From positions 42,773-64,619 of the forward strand of contig JAWCFL010000008.1 in the NCBI GenBank assembly GCA_038858525.1: 21,847 nt of DNA. Reading direction: 5' to 3'. This document shows, one piece after another, positions 5,693 to 21,367 of the stretch. The translations under genes and the position numbers were made by a program. How positions within the stretch are numbered: the first letter of the stretch is position 1; each line of letters starts with the position of its first letter. A model generated the notes under the pieces. It saw nothing but the letters and a program-made list of their open reading frames with translations. It was not told where the DNA came from and searched no databases. This DNA is from Candidatus Jordarchaeales archaeon (GTDB lineage: Archaea; Asgardarchaeota; Jordiarchaeia; Jordiarchaeales; Freyrarchaeaceae).

Positions 5693-6571
5693 CTAGTAGA
5701 ACTCTTTATCTAAAGGATGGAATAACTTGAAGTATGAGAGAGGTTGCCTCGACAGCTTCACAACTTGGCGGGCGAGCCTCTTGATCGTCTTCTTGGAGTG
5801 AGACAGGTATGGAAGAATGGGGCGTGTCCCTTTCATTTTGACGATGTATGCAAGGACATTTATCGCGGCAACCCTTAAACGGGGGTTATCTGAAAGGAGC
5901 GCCAGTTTCATAATGGGCTTAACCACTCTCTCGTCCCCTATGCGGGCCGCTAGTCCCAAGTGTTCCACTGTAAAGTCACCTTTCTCCAATGCTGAAACGA
6001 TTATGTCGTTAGCTCTATCATCTCCGAGGTCCACGAGAGCCATTAGTGCTGCCGTGGAAAGCTGCCTGTCTCCTGAAACTCTCTGAAGAAAGCTCCATAC
6101 TAGGTCTGCCGCCTTCTCGTCCCTCAGCACGCCGAGAACTACACATGCCTGAGCCTTAACGCTGTCCGGAAGCTCGTCAAAAACGCTTATGATATTCTCG
6201 GTCACTGGTAATCCGTTCTCCAAGCCGAGCTTTCCTAAGGCTACCAGTAGGTCGCCGCTAACCTTCTCGTATGATGGCTCTCTCAGCAGCGAGAGAATCT
6301 TTTCCCGTATTTCACTGTTCCTGGCGAGCTCCGCAAGTTTGGACACCGCTTCAAGCCTAGCGAGACCCCTCGCCTCAGATATTAGGGGGAGAAGCTCATC
6401 AATTGAGGAAGCCTTTGAGATCGAGGAAATAAGGGCGCCTTCACCCTTTTCAGGAGGCTTAAGTGCTAAGGCGGCTTCTAGCTCAGACTTAAACCATGGG
6501 AGAAGAAGGCTTCTTAAAGCCACGTAGGGACTTATGGATAACTGTGACTCTGCGGCTTCCACCTGCACCAC
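5693..6571 (-). CDS. HEAT/PBS-lyase-like repeat (alpha-solenoid) protein
   Basis: Repeated units such as ARLEAVSKL, VKAQACVVLGVLRDEKAADLV, STAALMALVDLGDDRA, LAARIGDERVVKPI and LRVAAINVLAYI. Confidence 0.75.
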   Translation of the reverse strand: MVQVEAAESQLSISPYVALRSLLLPWFKSELEAALALKPPEKGEGALISSISKASSIDELLPLISEARGLARLEAVSKLAELARNSEIREKILSLLREPSYEKVSGDLLVALGKLGLENGLPVTENIISVFDELPDSVKAQACVVLGVLRDEKAADLVWSFLQRVSGDRQLSTAALMALVDLGDDRANDIIVSALEKGDFTVEHLGLAARIGDERVVKPIMKLALLSDNPRLRVAAINVLAYIVKMKGTRPILPYLSHSKKTIKRLARQVVKLSRQPLSYFKLFHPLDKEFY

Positions 6572-6656
6572 ACTCCAATCTAGCCTTTAAAGGACTAAAT
6601 TTCGGATTCCTGTTTGGTTGCCAGCCTTGAAAAGGTTTCCTTGCCTCTGATAAAAT

Positions 6657-11470: not shown

Positions 11471-12589
11471 TCACCTCAAAACCTGGATGGATGAAGCCTT
11501 AAAAACAACGTGAACTTTTTCTCCCTCTCTCAATTTCATATCTTCGACAGATGCTTTCGTCGCCAGCGCCTCAACTCGTAGTCCTCCGATAGAAGCGAAA
11601 ACTCTCACTAGTGGTCCTTGAAATGACATGTCCACTACTGTTGCCTCTAGAACGTTACGTGCACTGGTCTCTGGCTTAGCTTTAGCCAAGATCACGTCCT
11701 CCGGCCTCACTAAAAAATTAACCATTCCCCCCACCTGTAGGTCTGGACTGTAGGGTATTAAGAGCCTGTAGCCCTCAACACTCACAAGTGTGACTCCATT
11801 CTCCCTGTCATGCGACTCAATCCGCCCTGAGAAAACGTTTCCGAGACTCATGAAGGACGCAACAAATGGGCTTTGGGGGTGTTCCATTAGCTCCCTCAAG
11901 CTTCCCGCTTGCTCTATGGCTCCATCTCTCATAACGGCAACCCTGTCAGCTAGGATATGTGCGTCCACTTGATCGTGTGTAACGTAAATCATCGTCATCC
12001 CGGTATTCCTGTGAATCCTGAGCAGTAGCTCCCTTGCTGATCTTCTAGTCTGAGGGTCAAGGTTACTTAGAGGCTCGTCCAATAAGAGGACACGCGGCTC
12101 CGTAACCAGAGTCCTAGCGAGGGAAACTCTCTGCTTCTCGCCTCCACTGAGAGAAGACGGCATTCTATCTTCAAGTCCTTCAAGGCCAAGTTCCCTCATA
12201 ACCTCTTTAACCCTCCTAGCGGCTTCACTACCTCTCACCCCGCGCATTTTTAAGCCGTAAAGAATGTTCTCTAACACCGTCATGTGAGGGAAAAGAGCAA
12301 AGTCTTGAAAGACCATACTTATATTTCTCTTCTCCGGCGGTAGACTGTCCACGCATTTCCCATCAAGGAAAACATGTCCTCTGTCTTGTTTCGTTAGCCC
12401 AGCGATCACGTTAAGGAGCGTTGTTTTGCCACACCCCGTAGGTCCAAGCACAACGAAGAATTCTCCCTCATCAACCTCAAGGTTCACATCCCTGAGCGCC
12501 TGAATAACCCTTCTCTTCCCTCTCAGCAACATTGCTAGGGGAGTTGGGAGAGAATACGATTTCCATACAGACTCAAGTCTCAGCGCCAT
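11471..12589 (-). CDS. wtpC: Tungstate/molybdate ABC transporter ATPase with TOBE domains
   Basis: Walker A GPTGCGKT, signature LSGGEKQR, Walker B LLLDEP, H-loop YVTHD, C-terminal TOBE (SARNVLEATV...FKAS). Confidence 0.9.
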   Translation of the reverse strand: MALRLESVWKSYSLPTPLAMLLRGKRRVIQALRDVNLEVDEGEFFVVLGPTGCGKTTLLNVIAGLTKQDRGHVFLDGKCVDSLPPEKRNISMVFQDFALFPHMTVLENILYGLKMRGVRGSEAARRVKEVMRELGLEGLEDRMPSSLSGGEKQRVSLARTLVTEPRVLLLDEPLSNLDPQTRRSARELLLRIHRNTGMTMIYVTHDQVDAHILADRVAVMRDGAIEQAGSLRELMEHPQSPFVASFMSLGNVFSGRIESHDRENGVTLVSVEGYRLLIPYSPDLQVGGMVNFLVRPEDVILAKAKPETSARNVLEATVVDMSFQGPLVRVFASIGGLRVEALATKASVEDMKLREGEKVHVVFKASSIQVLR

Positions 12590-12595
12590 TAAAGC

Positions 12596-13513
12596 TCACC
12601 TCTCGATTAGAAGTCTTACAACGAGTAAAACAACAGAGGACACGGCGAGGAGCAATATGGCTGCGGCGATGCTCGGGTATATTCCCCCAGCCCAGAACTT
12701 CCAGTATATGGCCGTCGTCAGCGTGTAGCTCTGACCCGGGACGTTACTTGAGACCATTATGGTTGCACCGAACTCGCCCATGGCCCTAGCCCACATCATA
12801 GCCCAGCCAGCAGCTAGCCCTCTAGTTGAAAGGGGAAGAGTGACCGAGCGGAAAACCTTGAAGGGAGATGCGCCCAGGCTCCTCGCGGCTAGCTCGAGGT
12901 CCACTGGTACCTCCTCGAAGGAGGCTATGGCTGAGCGAATAAAGAAGGGGGAGGCGACGAATGTTTGAGCCAGTATTATTCCGCGCCAAGTAAACACGAG
13001 TTCCCACCCGGCCTGCCTCAGGAAGGATCCTAGCGGAGTGTTTGGTCCAAGCAGAAGTATCAGGCTTATTCCAGCCACGACGGGAGGAAGAACCATTGGG
13101 AGCTCCACGAGCGTCTTAAGTATTCGTCTCCCCGGGAAATCGTAACGGGCCAGCAGGTAAGCCAAGGGGAGACCAAGACAAATGCAGATCATGCTTGAGA
13201 CGCCGGAGGTTATAAGGCTGACCCTTAACGCATCCAGCAAAACTTCGTCTTGGAAGGCTATTAGCATGGGGTTTCCGGAGTAAAGTTGAAGCTCAGCTAA
13301 TAAGGCCTCGAAGTCACCTGAAGCTAAGGAGCTATAAAATCTCTGAAAGGCTCCGGGATCTGCGTATGACGGGTTAATTGAGGAATAGATGAGCGTTCCG
13401 AGGGGGGCGAGGAACATGAATATGAGAAATGACAGCCCCAACGCGGCCATCGAAACCGGGAAAAGGGGGAAAGCCCCTCTGGCGTGCTTAGCTTCGTCGT
13501 TTCTCGGCTGCAA
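12596..13513 (-). CDS. wtpB: Tungstate/molybdate ABC transporter permease
   Basis: LPMVLPPVVAG, EAA loop ELAARSLGAS and WARAMGEFGAT; lies between the binding-protein and ATPase genes. Confidence 0.9.
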   Translation of the reverse strand: MQPRNDEAKHARGAFPLFPVSMAALGLSFLIFMFLAPLGTLIYSSINPSYADPGAFQRFYSSLASGDFEALLAELQLYSGNPMLIAFQDEVLLDALRVSLITSGVSSMICICLGLPLAYLLARYDFPGRRILKTLVELPMVLPPVVAGISLILLLGPNTPLGSFLRQAGWELVFTWRGIILAQTFVASPFFIRSAIASFEEVPVDLELAARSLGASPFKVFRSVTLPLSTRGLAAGWAMMWARAMGEFGATIMVSSNVPGQSYTLTTAIYWKFWAGGIYPSIAAAILLLAVSSVVLLVVRLLIER

Positions 13514-13516
13514 GGT

Positions 13517-14566
13517 TTAACCCTCCATGCAAACTTCTCTTATCTGGGGGGGTGTCGATGCCGTGTCGCCCATGAGTATGGGGGGGTAAACGGGTGGTTG
13601 GCTGTTCCTCTCCATGATGGAAGCCCCTTTAGTTAGTATGAAGCGTAGGAAAACAGTAGCCCAGTAAGAGTTTTCTGCGGTGGTGGGGATGGAGGCAGCG
13701 TATGAGATTGATGAGCCGCGGTAAGTTCTCCCGCTCTCCGTTGTTATGGTGAAGCGCGAGTACCACTCGTTAAACTCGCTGTATGGGACGCCTAGACTCA
13801 CGTTCCCGGGCAATCTTATGTAGGGAAGACCGAACTGCTCCGCCAGGGAGAGGTATGTCCAGCCCGCGTCAATTTGCCCTGTCTGGAGGGCTACCATCAA
13901 GTCGAACTCTTTCGCTGCCACGAAAACGTTGCTGGGATTGGAGAGGTACAGAGTTTTAATTATGCCCATTTCAGGATACCCCGGGAACTCGTCTCTGTGC
14001 TCTGGGTAGTATGCATCGCATATGTTAAAGACTATGAGCGTCCTGTAACCGCAAGGGTCGCTGTCAGGATTCGCCCTACCCCACTTCTTCACCTGATTTG
14101 GGTCAGCTAGCTTCCAATACCAGTTTTTCTCGTTAAGCCCAGCCGGGTTTCCGGGTGCCAGCGCGAGCACTATCTCGTTCCTAGCGAAGACAGCCCACCA
14201 CTCACAGTAACGCTTCATAGATCTAGGAGCGTAGCTTTCAGCCAGCTCGTCCTCTATCACTTTGTAGTCTGAGACAAGGATCAAGTCGCACCGTGCCCCA
14301 GCCTTCACAAGGCGAGCACACTCTAGGGACCCGTGAGCTGATATGCGGATTTCCACATATGGGTGCTCTGCCCTGAAAGCCTCGGCGAGCTCACTCACTA
14401 TTTTGCTCAAGCTTCCCGCGCAGAGCACATGGATCTCTACGCGGCCCGCTGACGAGACGCCCAAATAGTGCTCTTGCATGTAAAAGCCGTATAGGGAGAA
14501 AATCGCTAGGATCATTACTAAGGCTGCGAATGCTGTGGTAGGCTTACACCAGCGTCGAGGCATCAT
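13517..14566 (-). CDS. wtpA: Tungstate/molybdate-binding protein, WtpA type
   Basis: N-terminal membrane anchor, AGSL, GSLECAR, GRANPDSDPCGYR and KEFDL. These supply the Asp and Glu that give WtpA-type octahedral metal coordination, unlike ModA. Confidence 0.88.
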   Translation of the reverse strand: MMPRRWCKPTTAFAALVMILAIFSLYGFYMQEHYLGVSSAGRVEIHVLCAGSLSKIVSELAEAFRAEHPYVEIRISAHGSLECARLVKAGARCDLILVSDYKVIEDELAESYAPRSMKRYCEWWAVFARNEIVLALAPGNPAGLNEKNWYWKLADPNQVKKWGRANPDSDPCGYRTLIVFNICDAYYPEHRDEFPGYPEMGIIKTLYLSNPSNVFVAAKEFDLMVALQTGQIDAGWTYLSLAEQFGLPYIRLPGNVSLGVPYSEFNEWYSRFTITTESGRTYRGSSISYAASIPTTAENSYWATVFLRFILTKGASIMERNSQPPVYPPILMGDTASTPPQIREVCMEG

Positions 14567-14572
14567 GTCACC

Positions 14573-14598
14573 CCGTTATGAATAACAATACATAACGG
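14573..14598. promoter_or_regulatory. ModE-box-like operator overlapping the wtpA ribosome-binding site
   Basis: CCGTTATG-N10-CATAACGG perfect inverted repeat, which can be read as CGTTATGAA-N6-TACATAACG against the ModE consensus CGTTATATA-N6-TATATAACG. One arm abuts GGGGTGAC-ATG of wtpA. Confidence 0.6.
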
Positions 14599-14886
14599 AA
14601 CTGCTTCCTCCTAAAAAACTTATGGCTCCCACAAGAAAAAGTAAACAGTAATGAACGGCCAACCACCAACATTTTTTCGCTTTCAAGACAAAGCGTGAAC
14701 TCGTTGCCTAGCATTTCACCAAGACGATTAACTATTTTATTTTTAAAGTAAAAAGATGGGTTCACCCAGCTCTCTTCCAAGAGTACCCGGAGCAAGGAAA
14801 GCGATTTGGAGGAGAAATCAAGTTACCTATAAAAAAAGGATACTACTGTATCTGTGTTAAGTTTGTTGGATCATTAGGCGGCTTGT

Positions 14887-16797
14887 TCATAGTTCATGCA
14901 CTCTTTCTTCCTCGATTTTTTCCAGCAACTTTCGTAGTTCCCCGTTGTCTTTCCTTCCTAGGCGGCATATGAAGGATAGCTCGTGGGCTTTGAGGATGTC
15001 GGACTTAGTTATGATGCCCAGTATTTTCGCCGTGTTGTTTCTGTCTACTACAGGAACTCTGCTTATGCCATGCTCAGTCATTCTATCAAGTACCTGCCTA
15101 AGTGGCTCGTCAGGGTAGGCGACCACCAGCTTTCTACTCATGACGTCTTCTATTTTGCAATCTTTTTTGCCTTCTTTCATTGCCTTGATCACGTCCTTGA
15201 AGGTTACTATTCCGACCAGTTTCCCCTCGCTGCTAACCACGGGGTATCCTGTGTGCCCGGTTTGTTCTATTATCTCCAGCACTTGGAACGTGCGAATGTT
15301 CGGGTTAAGCGTGGTTACATTGGTGCTCATTATTTCCCCAGCTTTAATGTAGTCGAGAAGGTCCTTTCTCAGTTCAAGGGAGACATCTATACCATTCCTA
15401 AAGAGGCCCATTGTGTATATGCTTTCTTTCATCACGAAGCGGCTTACGAAGTAGCTCGTCACGCACCCAGCTATCAGAGGGAGTGCCATCATGTAATTTT
15501 TCATCATTTCAACAGGCATTATTACTCCTGTTAGGGGGGCCCGGCAGGCTGCAGCCAGCATCGCGGCCATTCCGACTACAGCGTAAAGCGTTGACTCAGA
15601 AACAAGCGAGGGAGCTAGCGTGTTTATTATTAGCCCGAAGGCTCCGCCGAACATGGCGCCGATGAACATTGACGGTATGAATACGCCGCCGCTTCCTCCG
15701 CTTCCCAGTGTTAGCCCGCATGTTAATATTTTGAGAGCGCCTAGAATGAGAAGCATTTCGACTGCTATTCTGCCTGAAAGAGCGCTCTTTATGACCCATA
15801 CTCCTTCTCCTCCAACGTGTGGGAGAAAATAAATTATGATTCCTACGAGTGCACCACCTAGCATGGGCTTCACGTAGCCGGAGAGATTTACGTGGTTGAG
15901 GATATCTTCTATCTTGAAGAAGCCCTTAACCCATAGGACGCTTAGCAGCCCTACTATGCTTCCTAGGATGAAGCAGAAGAAAACTTCGTGGTGATAATAG
16001 GTGAGTGGCGGAGGCTTGAAAAGGGGGCTGTCTCCCATCACAGCGATCGACAGAGCCGTGGCTACGGTAGAGGACAAGAGGACGGGTATGACCGCGGGGA
16101 ACTCAAAGCCTTGATGTACTACTTCGAGCCCGAAGAGGGCGCCGCCTATAGGGGCGTTGAACATTGCGCTGAGGCCAGCTGCGGCTCCACATACGACAAG
16201 TAACTTCTTGTGCTCAACGTCAAGTTTGAACAGCCTCGCAACGGTCGAAGCGAAGCCAGCGGATATGTAGATTATCGGTCCTTCAGTCCCAGCGCTCCCC
16301 CCGGAACCTATGGTGAGGGATGTTGCGAGGGTTGTCGTTAAGGGAGCTCTGCTATTTATGTCTCCTGACCCGATAGAAACTGCTTTCATCGTTTCAGCTA
16401 CACCGTCGCGCCCCCCTGACTCAGGTGTAAACTTGTGTGTTATGAGCCACGCAGTGAAGCCACCTATCGCCGGCAACGCTACTATCCAGTGTCGGCCGAA
16501 TGTTTGAGGCAGAAGCATGAAAATTTCGGTTAAATAGTCGATGGCGTGACGTAACGCTATGGCTCCGAGGCCACCTAGCACGCCAATTATAACTGACAGT
16601 AAGAATATTTTTAGGCGGAGGCGGGAGACATTGGATCGAGTTCCGCTTCTTAAGAAGCGGATGCGGGAGTAAAACTCGCGAATATCACTTTTAATTTTAG
16701 AGGTAAGCGTGATGCGTAGCGAGCCCTTGGACATGTCATCGCTCTCCCCGCCACTCTGCTCCGCGTCAGTCTCCAAGAAAAATCGCTCCTTGAACAC
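14887..16797 (-). CDS. CLC-family chloride channel/transporter with two C-terminal CBS domains
   Basis: GSGGSAGTEGP (gating Glu), FNAPIGGALFGLEV, GSGGSGGVFIP, RAPLTG, SIYT and CBS repeats (IMSTNVTT...HTGYPVV; VMSRKLV...ISRVPVV). The start may be the ATG at 16734. Confidence 0.93.
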   Translation of the reverse strand: MFKERFFLETDAEQSGGESDDMSKGSLRITLTSKIKSDIREFYSRIRFLRSGTRSNVSRLRLKIFLLSVIIGVLGGLGAIALRHAIDYLTEIFMLLPQTFGRHWIVALPAIGGFTAWLITHKFTPESGGRDGVAETMKAVSIGSGDINSRAPLTTTLATSLTIGSGGSAGTEGPIIYISAGFASTVARLFKLDVEHKKLLVVCGAAAGLSAMFNAPIGGALFGLEVVHQGFEFPAVIPVLLSSTVATALSIAVMGDSPLFKPPPLTYYHHEVFFCFILGSIVGLLSVLWVKGFFKIEDILNHVNLSGYVKPMLGGALVGIIIYFLPHVGGEGVWVIKSALSGRIAVEMLLILGALKILTCGLTLGSGGSGGVFIPSMFIGAMFGGAFGLIINTLAPSLVSESTLYAVVGMAAMLAAACRAPLTGVIMPVEMMKNYMMALPLIAGCVTSYFVSRFVMKESIYTMGLFRNGIDVSLELRKDLLDYIKAGEIMSTNVTTLNPNIRTFQVLEIIEQTGHTGYPVVSSEGKLVGIVTFKDVIKAMKEGKKDCKIEDVMSRKLVVAYPDEPLRQVLDRMTEHGISRVPVVDRNNTAKILGIITKSDILKAHELSFICRLGRKDNGELRKLLEKIEEERVHEL

Positions 16798-18212: not shown

Positions 18213-19127
18213 TCATCGGGGTGGCTGAAGTCTCAAGTAGGTTACCTTTCGGCTAGGTGAGCGCTCTGCGAGCATGCGTAGAAATAGTAACATGTCCTTT
18301 GCTTCAAGCGTTACGCCTGCAGCTTTGACGTGTCCTCCCCCGCCCAGTGGCTCAGCTATTCTTCTAGCATCCGTGCTGCTATTTTCATTAACTCTTATTG
18401 ATACCTTGAGCCTCCTCGGGCTATTAGGGTCACTGTACGCTACGGCAACGGTGTCGCAACCCCTAGCTAGCAACTTGTGAGCTATGTCCTTCGCAGCATA
18501 GTAAGGAATGGTGCCTTCTTCATCCACGAATACGAATAATCCCTTAGGGTTTTCAATGGACTCCGCTACCTCGCTGAGCCACTCGTCCAGCTTTTCTATA
18601 TCCTTCAGCTTCGCATACTGCTCTCTGAACCACTCGTCCTCTATGAAGGCTGCTCCCTTCTCCGCTAGAAGCTTGGCGAGCCTTACTCTGCCCTCATCGT
18701 CATCGTGAAGGAGCTTTATCACCCTGTCGAGCTTCAATGTTTTTTCAGTGTGTTTGCCTGTGTCTGCAGCAACTGCCATTTCGACTAGTTCGTCGGCGAT
18801 GCCGCCCCTAATGTTGAAGTAGTCGGCGACCAGCTTGGCGGCAGCTGGGGCGGACGGCGACACCATATCTTTCTCCGTGAGACGGCCCTCCTCTGCTAGT
18901 CGGCGGTAGTTGCTTTCATGGTGGTCTATGTTGGCCTTACAGTTCATGGTTTTGGGCAAGTCAATAACGATGTCCAGCGGTTCATTAATAGAGGAGGCTT
19001 CCCAAGGATTATTTATGAAGGTGATCTTCGCGTCAGGGTACTTCAGAAGAATTAGGGCTGCGGATATTATTCCGTCGCAGTCAGACCCGTGAACTGCCAC
19101 CCTCAATAGAATCATCCTCCCTTTCAA
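18213..19127 (-). CDS. DHH/DHHA1 phosphoesterase (NrnA/nanoRNase-like)
   Basis: HGSDCDG, IDLP, IDHH, ADTG and C-terminal SIR...GGGHVKAAG. Confidence 0.88.
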   Translation of the reverse strand: MKGRMILLRVAVHGSDCDGIISAALILLKYPDAKITFINNPWEASSINEPLDIVIDLPKTMNCKANIDHHESNYRRLAEEGRLTEKDMVSPSAPAAAKLVADYFNIRGGIADELVEMAVAADTGKHTEKTLKLDRVIKLLHDDDEGRVRLAKLLAEKGAAFIEDEWFREQYAKLKDIEKLDEWLSEVAESIENPKGLFVFVDEEGTIPYYAAKDIAHKLLARGCDTVAVAYSDPNSPRRLKVSIRVNENSSTDARRIAEPLGGGGHVKAAGVTLEAKDMLLFLRMLAERSPSRKVTYLRLQPPR

Positions 19128-19228: not shown

Positions 19229-20137
19229 TTACTGTAATGTAATAAGGTAAAGGATGATCCTTTGGAGGATCGTGTATTCCTCGGATGGCTGCGTGAAAAA
19301 CGGGTAGAGTGGCTTCAGTCCGAAGTATGCTCCGCACGCCAAGATTGCCACAATAGAGCTTAGGAGGAATAGGAGCGAGAAAGCGTAGAATGGGTTTGAA
19401 CGTACATTCTTCTGGTGTTTTTCAGTGAGTCGTATTCTTCCCGTCGCCAGAAGGTATGCCATTACTAAGAATGATGAAACTGAGAAGATGAGTATTTCGA
19501 AGGCTGCCTGTCCTTCCACGGAGCTGACACCGATTCCTGCTCCAAATAGGAGACCGATGAAACCGTATAAAGCATACTCGGTTCGCTTAAAGGACCACAT
19601 GTAGCCATGGTAGTTCTGGAGAATGGTGACTGAGACTATGAAGCCTACTACTCCAAGGTAGATGAGTTTGTGTCCCAGTACCTCGTCGAAGAAGTAAACT
19701 AGGAAGTATGTGTTTGCTTGTGGCGTAATTGGAAGGAGAATTGAGGGTGGGGTTAGGGAGATATAGGCGTGAAGCTCGTTTCCAGTGTATCTCATCGCCA
19801 GCCCGCTCAGGAAAAGGGAGAGGAACATTATGAAGGTGACCTCGCCAACAGGCTTGAGCTTTGCAGCGGTCTTCGTTTCCGGCGGTTGGCTGACTACTTC
19901 ACGGAAGACAAGAAATAACAGTATTGAGCCTATACTTCCCATAAGAAAGAAGCTCATGGTTCGACCCCACGAGAGGATTGCATTGTAGCAGATGTAGTCT
20001 TCAGAAGACGGGACGGGCACGAGTATGTATATGCCGGCTAGAACTTCGCCTATAACCGTGAATGCAAACCAACTGGCGACGAGGGCTAAAAGGTATAGTA
20101 GAAGACGGTTTCTTCTTACGAAGCCAACATCAGACAT
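19229..20137 (-). CDS. Multi-pass membrane protein (about 7-8 hydrophobic segments), CLN6-like by motif
   Basis: Hydrophobic segments throughout, with embedded polar motifs GNELH, YFFDEVLGH, VEGQ, SNPF and YP..QP in the same order as recalled CLN6 motifs. Confidence 0.55.
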   Translation of the reverse strand: MSDVGFVRRNRLLLYLLALVASWFAFTVIGEVLAGIYILVPVPSSEDYICYNAILSWGRTMSFFLMGSIGSILLFLVFREVVSQPPETKTAAKLKPVGEVTFIMFLSLFLSGLAMRYTGNELHAYISLTPPSILLPITPQANTYFLVYFFDEVLGHKLIYLGVVGFIVSVTILQNYHGYMWSFKRTEYALYGFIGLLFGAGIGVSSVEGQAAFEILIFSVSSFLVMAYLLATGRIRLTEKHQKNVRSNPFYAFSLLFLLSSIVAILACGAYFGLKPLYPFFTQPSEEYTILQRIILYLITLQ

Positions 20138-20263: not shown

Positions 20264-21367
20264 TTGCAACGGGAGATGGAGCATGAAGTATTTCCTGTTG
20301 CCGCGTTTTTGGAGCGAGTATGGAGGGATTTATTGAAAGACCCGAAGGAACTACTTGTTTATCTTCTTCTTCGCTCGATGAAGGAGACTACTCTGGATGA
20401 ACTTGCGGAGGTTGCAGGGATCCCGCGCAGGAGTGCTATTAGGATTCTCAGGTCGTTTGTTCGGAGGGGAGTTGCGAGGGAGGTTGAAGGGAAGGTGATT
20501 TTTAATCCTCGGTGCTCCGGGGGGCTAAAGGTTCCTTTCGGCGGGGAGGTTATGGAGTTAAGCATATCCGTGGATAGAGACTTGATGAATGTTGGGGAGG
20601 TCAGAGTTTACCGAGGGAAAGATGTGGTCGCATCTATGCCCTGCATAGTAAGCGGAGAGGACTTCGTCGTCGATTTGAGCGGTTTCCTCGAGTTTTACGG
20701 TGAAGCTGCGGGGTTGAATAGCTCGTCTTTCTCGGTTAAGAAGGCTTACAATGTTTTCAGGAGGCTGATGGATGGGAAGGGAGAGGTTAAAAACGCGGGG
20801 CAATGGGAGATAGATGCCGCCCTTGGAGCTATACTTCTCTGCGGAGCCATAGCGGAAGAGCTTGGACTAGACTACATAGTTACGACCATAGACTCGTCGA
20901 GCATACCCCGCAGGGTCGAGAGGAACGAGCTTGAACGCATCGAGGAGGAAAGTGGTGTCGAAATAGTGGCTGGTTACTCCTTCCCGCTTGGGAAAGGAGA
21001 CGGGTTACTACTTATTGACAGAGCTTGCAGAACATACTTTTCGAAAAGGGGAGAGAGGACCTTAGTGGAGTTAGAAGTCGTTGAGGAGGAAGACATTGTT
21101 GAAGTAGACTTTTCATCTCTAGTGAATAGGTATGTTAAGTTTGCTGAGGGTAAGAAGGCGAGCTTCTCTGCTGAGAAAGTGGTGGACTGCTTCTTCATGA
21201 TGCTGGAGAATGGGGGCAGGGTTGAAGACTACTTGAAGCGGGTGGATTACGATGACGAGAGAGAGCTTTTAGAGGCAATGTATAGGATAAGCATGGTCAT
21301 AATGAGACTTAAGGGGAAGGATGTCACTGCAAAGGTGACTTACCCATCCTTCTCCGGTGAGAACTAG
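20264..21367 (+). CDS. Hypothetical protein with N-terminal winged-HTH (TrmB-like) and unrecognised C-terminal domain
   Basis: ELLVYLLLRSMKETTLDELAEVAGIPRRSAIRILRSFVRRGVAREVEG is a wHTH pattern. The remaining roughly 280 aa are not recognised. Confidence 0.6.
   Translation: MQREMEHEVFPVAAFLERVWRDLLKDPKELLVYLLLRSMKETTLDELAEVAGIPRRSAIRILRSFVRRGVAREVEGKVIFNPRCSGGLKVPFGGEVMELSISVDRDLMNVGEVRVYRGKDVVASMPCIVSGEDFVVDLSGFLEFYGEAAGLNSSSFSVKKAYNVFRRLMDGKGEVKNAGQWEIDAALGAILLCGAIAEELGLDYIVTTIDSSSIPRRVERNELERIEEESGVEIVAGYSFPLGKGDGLLLIDRACRTYFSKRGERTLVELEVVEEEDIVEVDFSSLVNRYVKFAEGKKASFSAEKVVDCFFMMLENGGRVEDYLKRVDYDDERELLEAMYRISMVIMRLKGKDVTAKVTYPSFSGEN

What the first reader, a model, noticed from the sequence alone, without database searches (positions are those of the whole stretch)
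19229..20137. Candidate archaeal homolog of the ER membrane protein CLN6
Seen versus human CLN6 as recalled from memory, five motifs occur in the same order in a protein of similar length (302 aa versus about 311): FLSGLAMRYTGNELH / FIMGASIHLVGDSVN; LVYFFDEVLGHKLIY / LLYYYDEYLGHCMWY; SVEGQAAFEILIF / VTEGQIFILFIF; RSNPFYAF / DSNGLFLF; YPFFTQP / YPGVIYVP. Established: CLN6 is a multi-pass ER protein mutated in neuronal ceroid lipofuscinosis, of unclear biochemical activity. I know of no report of it as an Asgard signature protein. Inference: conserved intramembrane Asp/Glu/His residues (D151, E152, H156, E208) suggest a metal-binding or lipid-modifying site, and a prokaryotic homolog would help define CLN6 function.
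Basis: partly seen in the sequence, partly recalled or inferred. Interest (0 to 1): 0.75.

Follow-up and report, generated by a model that had tools for sequence, protein, structure and literature searches.

The report
Divergent archaeal relative of CLN6 enzyme
This Asgard (Jordarchaeia) gene encodes a seven-helix membrane protein that is a real but distant relative of human CLN6, the Batten-disease enzyme shown in October 2026 to flip the handedness of a glycerol-phosphate lipid precursor. It is the altered copy of two in the genome, and the family is also common in bacteria.

Summary
The ORF at 19229-20137 (minus strand, 302 aa) is real, conserved and under purifying selection, and all five motifs are present as described. 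The protein does not match the Pfam CLN6 profile directly.

The link to CLN6 is indirect but strong:
- Its family profile matches prokaryotic relatives over their full length (hhalign 99.9%, E 1e-34).
- Most of those relatives hit PF15156 as their only consistent family: 9/17 archaeal-type and 21/29 bacterial, best E 7e-8, and one Asgard protein above the curated cut-off.

It shares with human CLN6 the N-in/C-out seven-helix topology, a predicted homodimer, and the D-E-x3-H-x3-Y and EGQ catalytic motifs.

Two October 2026 preprints show that CLN6 is a Ca2+-dependent glycerophosphoglycerol epimerase that uses exactly these residues, so "unclear activity" is out of date.

- The family is widespread in Bacteria and other Archaea and patchy in Asgard (43/301 genomes), so it is not an Asgard signature protein.
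- This copy belongs to a Jordarchaeia/Freyarchaeia-only clade that replaced three pocket residues (consensus D to R59, D/E to S62, H to R116, the last being human H127). A second copy on another contig keeps the consensus.

It is most likely a related phosphoryl-transfer enzyme with a changed substrate. This scan had already found CLN6-like genes in other Asgard genomes.

The parts
19229..20137 (-). CLN6-like gene (P0001, 302 aa plus stop): seven-helix membrane protein, divergent Jordarchaeia/Freyarchaeia subfamily
   Evidence: ORF and translation. Orthologs at 52-99% identity, only in Frey-/Jordarchaeia. dN/dS 0.12-0.13. AF2 model pLDDT 94.3, pTM 0.90.
19970..20029 (-). Extracytoplasmic beta-hairpin insert (residues 37-56) with invariant E46, typical of the archaeal 'group I' branch
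   Evidence: Strands 37-44 and 49-56 in the model. The insert is present in about half of the superfamily, with E or D at position 46 in all 36 rows that have it. It lies in the predicted dimer interface.
19952..19963 (-). Start of TM2, R59-T-M-S62: takes the place of the superfamily D-x-x-[D/E] motif and of human D59-F-G-R62
   Evidence: Column counts: position 59 is D in 24, E in 7 and R in 7 rows (6 of the clade's own rows plus P0035); position 62 is D or E in 46 rows, and all 6 clade rows have S (S in 10 rows overall). hhalign pairs R59 and S62 with D and D of the A3 profile. Human residues.
19769..19804 (-). TM3 motif G112-x3-R116-x3-N120-E-L-H123, the counterpart of human G123-x3-H127-x3-D131
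   Evidence: G in 61/66 rows, H in 53/66 (R in this clade and in one other row, P0015), N in 59/66. Human G123D and H127Y are pathogenic and D131A is inactive.
19658..19696 (-). TM4 catalytic motif Y148-F-F-D151-E152-V-L-G-H156-K-L-I-Y160, the counterpart of human Y170-Y-Y-D173-E174-Y-L-G-H178-C-M-W-Y182
   Evidence: E152 and H156 are invariant and D151 is in 65/66 rows. Human D173/E174/H178 bind Ca2+, H178 is the proposed phospho-His nucleophile and Y182 is needed. All Pfam hits of relatives place this motif at about profile position 144.
19508..19516 (-). End of TM5, E208-G-Q, the counterpart of human E227-G-Q
   Evidence: E in 63/66, G in 56/66 and Q in 54/66 rows. Human E227A is inactive. 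Human sequence.
19379..19399 (-). S247-N-P-F-Y-A-F253 at the start of TM7 (human S257-N-G-L-F-L-F263)
   Evidence: P249 in 55/66 and F253 in 41/66 rows. Human motif read.
19280..19306 (-). Extracytoplasmic C-terminal motif Y278-P-F-F-T-Q-P-S-E286 (human Y290-P-G-V-I-Y-V-P-E298)
   Evidence: Q283 in 51/66, P284 in 48/66 and S285 in 42/66 rows. The motif lies in the predicted dimer interface.

Best explanation
The gene encodes a homodimeric, seven-helix integral membrane enzyme of the CLN6 superfamily. Its N-terminus is cytoplasmic and its active site faces the outside of the cell.

It keeps the catalytic core that human CLN6 uses for its reaction. In CLN6 a histidine (H178, here H156) attacks the phosphorus of a glycerophosphodiester, and an acidic cluster (D173/E174/E227, here D151/E152/E208) holds divalent cations. 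The phosphate then returns to the other primary hydroxyl of the glycerol, which inverts its configuration.

The most likely function here is therefore metal-dependent phosphoryl transfer or migration on a glycerophosphodiester head group at the outer face of the membrane.

This copy is a lineage-specific paralog (Jordarchaeia/Freyarchaeia). Three substrate-pocket positions were changed and then fixed: R59 for the consensus Asp, S62 for Asp/Glu, and R116 for the consensus His (human H127). It probably acts on a different, likely more anionic, substrate than the canonical copy P0014 in the same genome.

Shown here: homology, topology, motif conservation, the clade-specific substitutions and purifying selection. 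Inferred: the chemistry, the metal dependence and the change of substrate.
For: Homology:
- hhalign of the ortholog profile A1 against CLN6-hitting relatives gives 99.9%, E 1.4e-34 over 247 columns, and against bacterial members 99.3%, E 8.9e-21.
- PF15156 is the only recurring Pfam family among relatives: 11/66, 9/17, 21/29 with best E 7.3e-8. The Asgard protein from L002 scores 28.4 bits against a cut-off of 27.
- The paralog P0014 in the same genome hits CLN6 at E 0.011 and matches P0001 by BLASTP at E 4e-15.
- Structure searches find bacterial clusters at TM 0.68-0.69 (by query) and 0.81-0.86 (by target). One of these carries PF15156 on 12% of its members.

Catalytic core: E152 and H156 are invariant, and D151, E208, G112 and Y148 are at 90% or more in 66 sequences. 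Their spacing equals that of human D173-E174-x3-H178-x3-Y182, E227-G-Q and G123-x3-H127-x3-D131.

Topology: the model has pLDDT 94.3. The four predicted inner segments (N-terminal tail 1-10 and loops 83-99, 177-184, 232-248) carry 11 K+R and the four predicted outer loops carry 1. This puts N inside, the conserved residues in the outer half and the QPSE end outside, as mapped for human CLN6.

Homodimer: predicted-complex score 0.81, best of 3 controls 0.00. That mark was reached by 20 of 30 proteins solved as pairs of one chain and by 1 of 23 solved as single chains. The runs agree in at least 93% of contacts and the partner's pLDDT is at least 81. No similar complex has been solved. Human CLN6 is modelled as a homodimer.

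Divergent pocket: R59, S62 and R116 are fixed within the clade, against D, D/E and H in the rest of the superfamily. The clade sits on a long stem branch of 1.18 with 100% support, and dN/dS is 0.12-0.13.
Against: - P0001 itself gives no hit to PF15156 even at E<=10.
The residue mapping to human rests on motif spacing and on my by-eye translation of the ORF printed in a preprint.
- The Pfam matches of relatives cover only profile positions from about 108 to 256, so the correspondence of the N-terminal half (D59/R62, H127/D131) is by motif only.
- In human CLN6, H127Y and D59A abolish activity. The substitutions here could therefore mean loss of activity rather than a new substrate.
- No CLN8 (TLC-domain), CLN5 or GDPD homolog was found in this 92.7%-complete genome.
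- Gene neighbours are not conserved beyond the family, so context does not point to a substrate.
Confidence: 0.55

Rival explanations
1. It is a canonical glycerophosphoglycerol epimerase that does the same reaction as human CLN6 (R,S-GPG to S,S-GPG), and the pocket substitutions are neutral.
For: It has the same catalytic D-E-x3-H-x3-Y and EGQ motifs, the same topology and a predicted homodimer.
Against: The counterparts of human D59, R62, H127 and Y223 are R, S, R and V. In human CLN6, D59A, R62H/C and H127Y abolish activity. A second copy with the consensus residues exists in the same genome. No CLN8 or CLN5 homologs were found.
Confidence: 0.12
2. It is a non-catalytic or regulatory paralog (a pseudoenzyme), for example a partner that pairs with the canonical copy P0014 or a lipid or metal binder.
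For: Three to four residues essential in the human enzyme are lost, and the clade sits on a long stem branch. The two paralogs co-occur in 8 of the 10 other same-order genomes searched, as they do in this genome.
Against: The nucleophile His and all three acidic residues are strictly kept across the clade, and dN/dS is 0.12-0.13. One closed genome (G028) has only this type and not the canonical one. The replacements are themselves invariant, which suggests function rather than decay.
Confidence: 0.15
3. It is not related to CLN6. The shared motifs are convergent in an unrelated seven-helix family, for example a transporter or metal-dependent hydrolase.
For: There is no direct Pfam hit. No eukaryotic CLN6 cluster appeared in the Atlas structure or feature lists. 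No solved fold matches.
Against: The chain of profile matches is strong, and PF15156 is the only family recurring among 40 or more relatives. All hits put the DE..H motif on the same profile columns. Five motifs occur in the same order and with the same spacing on the same helices.
Confidence: 0.06

Closest known systems
Human/vertebrate CLN6 (Pfam PF15156), the ER Ca2+-dependent glycerophosphoglycerol epimerase of S,S-BMP synthesis (preprints 10.64898/2026.10.07.757477 and 10.64898/2026.10.07.757350)
   Same: Similar length (302 vs 311 aa). Seven helices with N inside and C outside (luminal in human). Predicted homodimer. Shared motifs G-x3-[H/R]-x3-[D/N], Y-x2-D-E-x-L-G-H-x3-Y, E-G-Q, S-N-x-[FL] and Y-P-x4-5-P-[SE]. 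The counterparts of D173, E174, H178, Y182 and E227 are all kept.
   Different: No direct profile match. The counterparts of D59, R62, H127 and Y223 are R59, S62, R116 and V204, and D131 is N120. There is an extra beta-hairpin after TM1, a shorter TM3-TM4 loop and an extra C-terminal helix. The host has no CLN8 or CLN5 homolog, so the protein is not part of a BMP pathway.
Prokaryotic CLN6-like proteins of the compact type ('group II'): the paralog P0014 in this genome, Hod-/Promethearchaeota proteins such as the L002 ORF, and Chloroflexota, Actinomycetota and other bacterial proteins. All are uncharacterised and only partly labelled PF15156.
   Same: Full-length profile homology (E 1e-34 and 9e-21), the same fold (TM 0.81-0.86 by target) and the same catalytic core.
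   Different: They keep D-x-x-[D/E] at TM2 and His at the H127 position, lack the hairpin and the C-terminal helix, are 230-290 aa long, and many hit PF15156 directly.
Phospholipase D (HKD) superfamily: a mechanistic analogue only. These phosphodiester enzymes work through a covalent phospho-histidine intermediate (established knowledge).
   Same: The proposed chemistry: a His nucleophile on a phosphodiester, followed by transfer of the phosphoryl group to an alcohol.
   Different: An unrelated soluble alpha/beta fold with an HxK-x4-D motif and no metal requirement. There is no homology.

Membership tests
CLN6 (Pfam PF15156) in the strict sense | The protein itself matches the PF15156 profile at or above the curated cut-off (27 bits) | tested here: not met
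   No CLN6 hit at E<=10 by hmmscan. A six-frame search of the genome with PF15156 finds only the paralog on contig C5.
CLN6 superfamily (remote homology) | Significant profile-level link to proteins that match PF15156 | tested here: met
   hhalign A1 vs A3 gives 99.9%, E 1.4e-34. A1 vs A5 gives 99.3%, E 8.9e-21. A3 has 9/17 and A5 has 21/29 members hitting PF15156, best E 7.3e-8, and the L002 ORF scores 28.4 bits against 27.
CLN6 superfamily | Catalytic His with the adjacent Asp-Glu pair and Tyr (human D173-E174-x3-H178-x3-Y182) | tested here: met
   D151-E152-V-L-G-H156-K-L-I-Y160. The motif is invariant or nearly so in 66 sequences. Human residues.
CLN6 superfamily | Glutamate of the E-G-Q motif (human E227) | tested here: met
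   E208-G-Q; E is present in 63/66 rows. Human E227A is inactive.
CLN6 (enzyme as mapped in human) | Substrate-pocket His127 and Asp131 (G-x3-H-x3-D) | tested here: not met
   G112-x3-R116-x3-N120. His is the superfamily consensus (53/66) but is Arg in this clade, and Asn replaces Asp in 59/66 rows.
CLN6 (enzyme as mapped in human) | Asp59 and Arg62 at the outer end of TM2 | tested here: not met
   R59 and S62 here, against D and D/E in most relatives. The mapping to human is by motif and position only.
CLN6 (enzyme as mapped in human) | Tyr223 near the substrate | tested here: not met
   V204 lies four residues before E208, and the column is variable across the superfamily (I, F, V, Y).
CLN6 superfamily | Seven transmembrane helices, N-terminus cytoplasmic, C-terminus and active site on the luminal or outer side | tested here: met
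   Helices from the AF2 model. K+R counts are 11 in the four predicted inner segments and 1 in the four outer loops. Human topology. The role of the extra helix 284-301 is unresolved.
CLN6 superfamily | Homodimer | tested here: met
   Prediction only. Score 0.81, best of 3 controls 0.00. The mark was reached by 20 of 30 proteins solved as pairs of one chain and by 1 of 23 solved as single chains. Runs agree in at least 93% of contacts and the partner's pLDDT is at least 81.
CLN6 (enzyme) | Ca2+-dependent conversion of R,S- to S,S-glycerophosphoglycerol | not testable with these tools
   Needs purified protein and the chiral LC-MS assay of the preprints.
BMP biosynthesis pathway (CLN6-CLN8-CLN5) | Presence of the downstream acyltransferases CLN8 (TLC domain, PF03798) and CLN5 (PF15014) | tested here: not met
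   No match at E<=1 in the window's own genome, which is 92.7% complete.
Asgard eukaryotic signature protein | Restricted to Asgard archaea and eukaryotes, rare or absent in other prokaryotes | tested here: not met
   True members were found in at least 10 bacterial phyla and in Halobacteria and Woesearchaeota. Only 43 of 301 Asgard genomes searched have one. Bacterial members reach the best PF15156 scores.
Asgard eukaryotic signature protein | Asgard sequences are sister to eukaryotic CLN6 in a tree | not tested
   No eukaryotic sequence could be obtained through the tools.

The most novel reading that the evidence does not exclude
Jordarchaeia and Freyarchaeia may keep a pair of CLN6-type enzymes that set or invert the handedness of glycerol-phosphate groups in their membrane lipids. 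The Arg-substituted copy described here would then be adapted to an archaeal-type (sn-glycerol-1-phosphate based) or otherwise more anionic phosphodiester. That would be a prokaryotic stereo-inverting lipid enzyme relevant to the archaeal/bacterial 'lipid divide' and to the origin of the eukaryotic enzyme.
Probability: 0.1. Interest if true: 0.85.

Novelty: new variant of a known kind. Interest (0 to 1): 0.55.

Why it matters
CLN6 gained a biochemical function only in October 2026, no experimental structure exists, and neither preprint mentions prokaryotic relatives. My literature searches found no paper that links CLN6 to archaea or Asgard.

A widespread family of small, compact prokaryotic homologs would give tractable material for structure determination and mechanism. 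It also raises the question of what a glycerol-phosphate stereo-inverting enzyme does in organisms that make no BMP.

This gene adds a natural experiment. It is a conserved paralog in which the nucleophile and the metal ligands are kept but three pocket residues, including the counterpart of the disease residue H127, are swapped for Arg, Ser and Arg. Comparing it with the canonical copy in the same genome could define which residues set substrate specificity.

Tried and rejected
- **Direct family scans of P0001.** Pfam gave only a chance DUF7554 hit at E 0.28, and NCBIfam gave nothing.
- **Shallow-alignment model.** AlphaFold with the 12 close orthologs gave pLDDT 55.6 and was not used. The 66-sequence alignment was needed.
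- **Fetching eukaryotic CLN6 sequences.** This failed with the superfamily profile and with the DEYLGH-bearing Promethearchaeota protein P0034, region 100-203. No alignment, tree or fold comparison with eukaryotes could therefore be run.
- **Atlas searches.** The feature and structure searches listed no eukaryotic CLN6 cluster. That service misses about a third of the best matches.
- **The search for related loci.** I used a degenerate DNA pattern for Y-F-[YF]-D-E-x-L-G-H instead and checked the hits with an HMM. About 43 of 69 were true members.
- **Operon context.** The DHHA1 phosphoesterase and the TrmB-like neighbours are kept only within the same family. Across 71 neighbours of about 40 loci no family recurs, apart from Omp85 in five bacterial loci and TrmB-like regulators in three loci, probably the Jord-/Freyarchaeia ones. 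I rejected context as a guide to function.
- **Pathway partners.** Searches of the genome for CLN8/TLC, CLN5 and GDPD found nothing.

Full report
**The gene**

Window 19229-20137 holds one ORF on the minus strand. It starts with ATG, encodes 302 aa, and the end coordinate includes the stop. A TATA-like TTTTTAAAA lies about 50 nt upstream of the start codon and a GAGGGG lies a few nt upstream.

Close relatives (52-99% identity, 278-318 aa) come only from Freyarchaeota/Jordarchaeia assemblies. The window lies in a 2.09-Mb, 92.7%-complete Jordarchaeia genome. Against orthologs of the same family dN/dS is 0.12-0.13, so this is a working gene.

**Is it related to CLN6?**

Directly, no. P0001 gives no PF15156 hit even at E<=10. 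A six-frame search of the whole genome with PF15156 picks up a different gene on contig C5.

That gene, P0014 (287 aa), is a paralog of P0001: BLASTP gives 29% identity over 175 aa at E 4e-15. P0014 hits CLN6 weakly, at E 0.011 and 15.6 bits.

An exhaustive phmmer search of 1.8 billion cluster representatives found 60 relatives at E<=1e-3. Among the 66 aligned sequences PF15156 is the only Pfam family that recurs: 11 members match, and no other family exceeds 4.

- In a subset of compact relatives (A3), 9 of 17 hit CLN6 at E<=0.01. One Asgard protein (L002 ORF) scores 28.4 bits against the curated 27.
- In a purely bacterial set (A5), 21 of 29 hit it, with best E 7.3e-8.
- The P0001 ortholog profile matches A3 at hhalign probability 99.9%, E 1.4e-34 over 247 columns.
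- It matches A5 at 99.3%, E 8.9e-21.

All Pfam hits place the D-E-x3-H motif at the same profile position, about 144. I take remote homology to CLN6 as established at roughly 90% confidence, by transitivity. The Pfam evidence covers only the TM4-TM7 half.

**Structure**

With the 66-sequence alignment AlphaFold2 gives pLDDT 94.3 and pTM 0.90. The model has seven long helices, a beta-hairpin at 37-56, a small hairpin at 238-247 and a last helix at 284-301.

Lys and Arg are concentrated in alternate segments. The four predicted inner segments (the N-terminal tail 1-10 and loops 83-99, 177-184 and 232-248) carry 11, and the four predicted outer loops carry 1. This puts the N-terminus inside and all conserved polar residues in the outer half. 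[quoted passage not shown]

The nearest predicted structures are bacterial clusters from Chloroflexota and Actinomycetota, at TM 0.68-0.69 by query and 0.81-0.86 by target. One of them carries PF15156 on 12% of its members. Nothing in the PDB matches.

A two-copy prediction scored 0.81, with 0.00 for the best of 3 controls. That mark was reached by 20 of 30 proteins solved as pairs of one chain and by 1 of 23 solved as single chains. The runs agree in at least 93% of contacts and the partner's pLDDT is at least 81. The interface is symmetric and runs through TM3, TM4 and the hairpin. Human CLN6 is likewise modelled as a homodimer.

**What CLN6 does**

They show that human CLN6 is a Ca2+-dependent epimerase that converts R,S- to S,S-glycerophosphoglycerol, upstream of CLN8 and CLN5 in BMP synthesis.

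- D59A, D131A, D173A, E174A, H178A and E227A are inactive.
- The patient variants R62H/C and H127Y are inactive.
- The Y182A/Y223A double mutant is inactive.

The proposed mechanism uses a phospho-His178 intermediate and moves the phosphate between the two primary hydroxyls of the glycerol. Neither paper mentions prokaryotic homologs, and I found no paper linking CLN6 to archaea.

**Residue mapping**

I translated by eye the human ORF printed in one of the preprints.

| Human CLN6 | This protein | Kept? |
|---|---|---|
| D173, E174, H178, Y182 | D151, E152, H156, Y160 | yes |
| E227 | E208 | yes |
| G123 | G112 | yes |
| D131 | N120 | Asn, as in 59 of 66 relatives |
| H127 | R116 | no |
| D59 | R59 | no |
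| R62 | S62 | no |
| Y223 | V204 | no |

The last three changes are not typical of the family. Across the superfamily the H127 column is His in 53 of 66 rows, the D59 column is Asp in 24 (Glu in 7), and the R62 column is Asp or Glu in 46. R116 and S62 are invariant and R59 is nearly so in the Frey-/Jordarchaeia clade. Arg at both positions 59 and 116, together with Ser62, occurs only in this clade, although Arg turns up singly in two other rows. The paralog P0014 keeps the consensus.

In a 104-sequence tree (quick search, SH-aLRT support) this clade has 100% support and a long stem branch of 1.18. It sits in an apparently archaeal group that shares the hairpin insert. P0014, the best Pfam-scoring Asgard proteins and all bacterial sequences fall in the other group.

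**Distribution**

A profile search of 301 Asgard genomes finds the superfamily in 43. It is present in all 4 other genomes of the window's family and all 6 of the sister family, and 8 of those 10 carry both paralogs. It is found in 7 of 68 and 0 of 76 genomes in the two largest families searched.

A pattern scan of 185,579 species' genomes, checked with an HMM, found true members in many groups:

- Bacteria: Chloroflexota, Actinomycetota, Thermodesulfobacteriota, Verrucomicrobiota, Zixibacteria, Ignavibacteriales, Deferribacteres, Gemmatimonadetes, Cytophagia, Obscuribacterales, Dojkabacteria and Saccharibacteria.
- Archaea: Halobacteria, Woesearchaeota, Baldr-, Hod-, Hel-, Prometh-, Jord- and Freyarchaeota.

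The family is therefore not an Asgard signature.

**Context**

A DHHA1 phosphoesterase gene follows 101 bp downstream on the same strand, and a TrmB-like regulator is divergent upstream. Both neighbours are kept only within the same family. Neighbours across about 40 loci show no recurring partner. The genome has no CLN8, CLN5 or GDPD homolog.

**Conclusion**

This is a divergent member of the CLN6 superfamily. Its catalytic core is intact and its substrate pocket is remodelled but conserved.

- Most likely (0.55): a metal-dependent, His-mediated phosphoryl-transfer enzyme that acts on a glycerophosphodiester at the outer membrane face, with a different substrate from the canonical copy.
- Rivals: the same GPG epimerase as human CLN6 (0.12), a non-catalytic paralog (0.15), or no real relationship to CLN6 (0.06).

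The scan has reported CLN6-like genes in other Asgard genomes before. What is specific here is the paralog pair and the R59/S62/R116 variant.

Noticed in passing
L001:1372-2232 (-), i.e. G000 contig C5:53417-54190: A second CLN6-like gene in the same genome (P0014, 287 aa) keeps the superfamily consensus residues (His at the H127 position, E..E at TM2). It is the only locus in the genome that the Pfam CLN6 profile finds (E 0.007-0.011).
   Followed up: partly
window 18213-19127 (-): A DHHA1-domain phosphoesterase gene (304 aa) lies 101 bp downstream of the CLN6-like gene on the same strand. The pairing is kept only in genomes of the same family, so no functional link can be claimed.
   Followed up: partly
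window 20264-21367 (+): A 367-aa protein with an N-terminal TrmB-type winged helix is divergent from the CLN6-like gene. It is kept next to the gene in three related Jordarchaeia genomes (L015, L017, L022).
   Followed up: partly
window 11471-16797 (-): An ABC transporter operon (solute-binding protein, permease, ATPase with TOBE domains) is followed by a CLC chloride channel with CBS domains. These are ordinary transport genes.
   Followed up: no
L068:4375-5289 (-): A contig titled 'Thermoproteota archaeon S9B3_HD70' carries a Jordarchaeia-type copy almost identical to P0007. The taxonomic label of that MAG is probably wrong.
   Followed up: no
L077:5799-6649 (+): The Helarchaeota copy is split into two overlapping ORFs (5799-6212 and 6104-6649). 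This could be a frameshift, an assembly error or a broken gene.
   Followed up: no
G006 and G028 (genome search): One genome of the same genus (95% complete) shows only the canonical paralog. One closed genome of the sister family shows only the Arg-substituted type. The two copies are therefore not strictly co-inherited.
   Followed up: no
bacterial loci among L026-L094: Five bacterial CLN6-like genes have an Omp85-domain neighbour. Single loci have a GDPD glycerophosphodiesterase, a lysyl-PG synthase TM domain or a Tle1-like phospholipase next door. These hints of a lipid link are too few to weigh.
   Followed up: no
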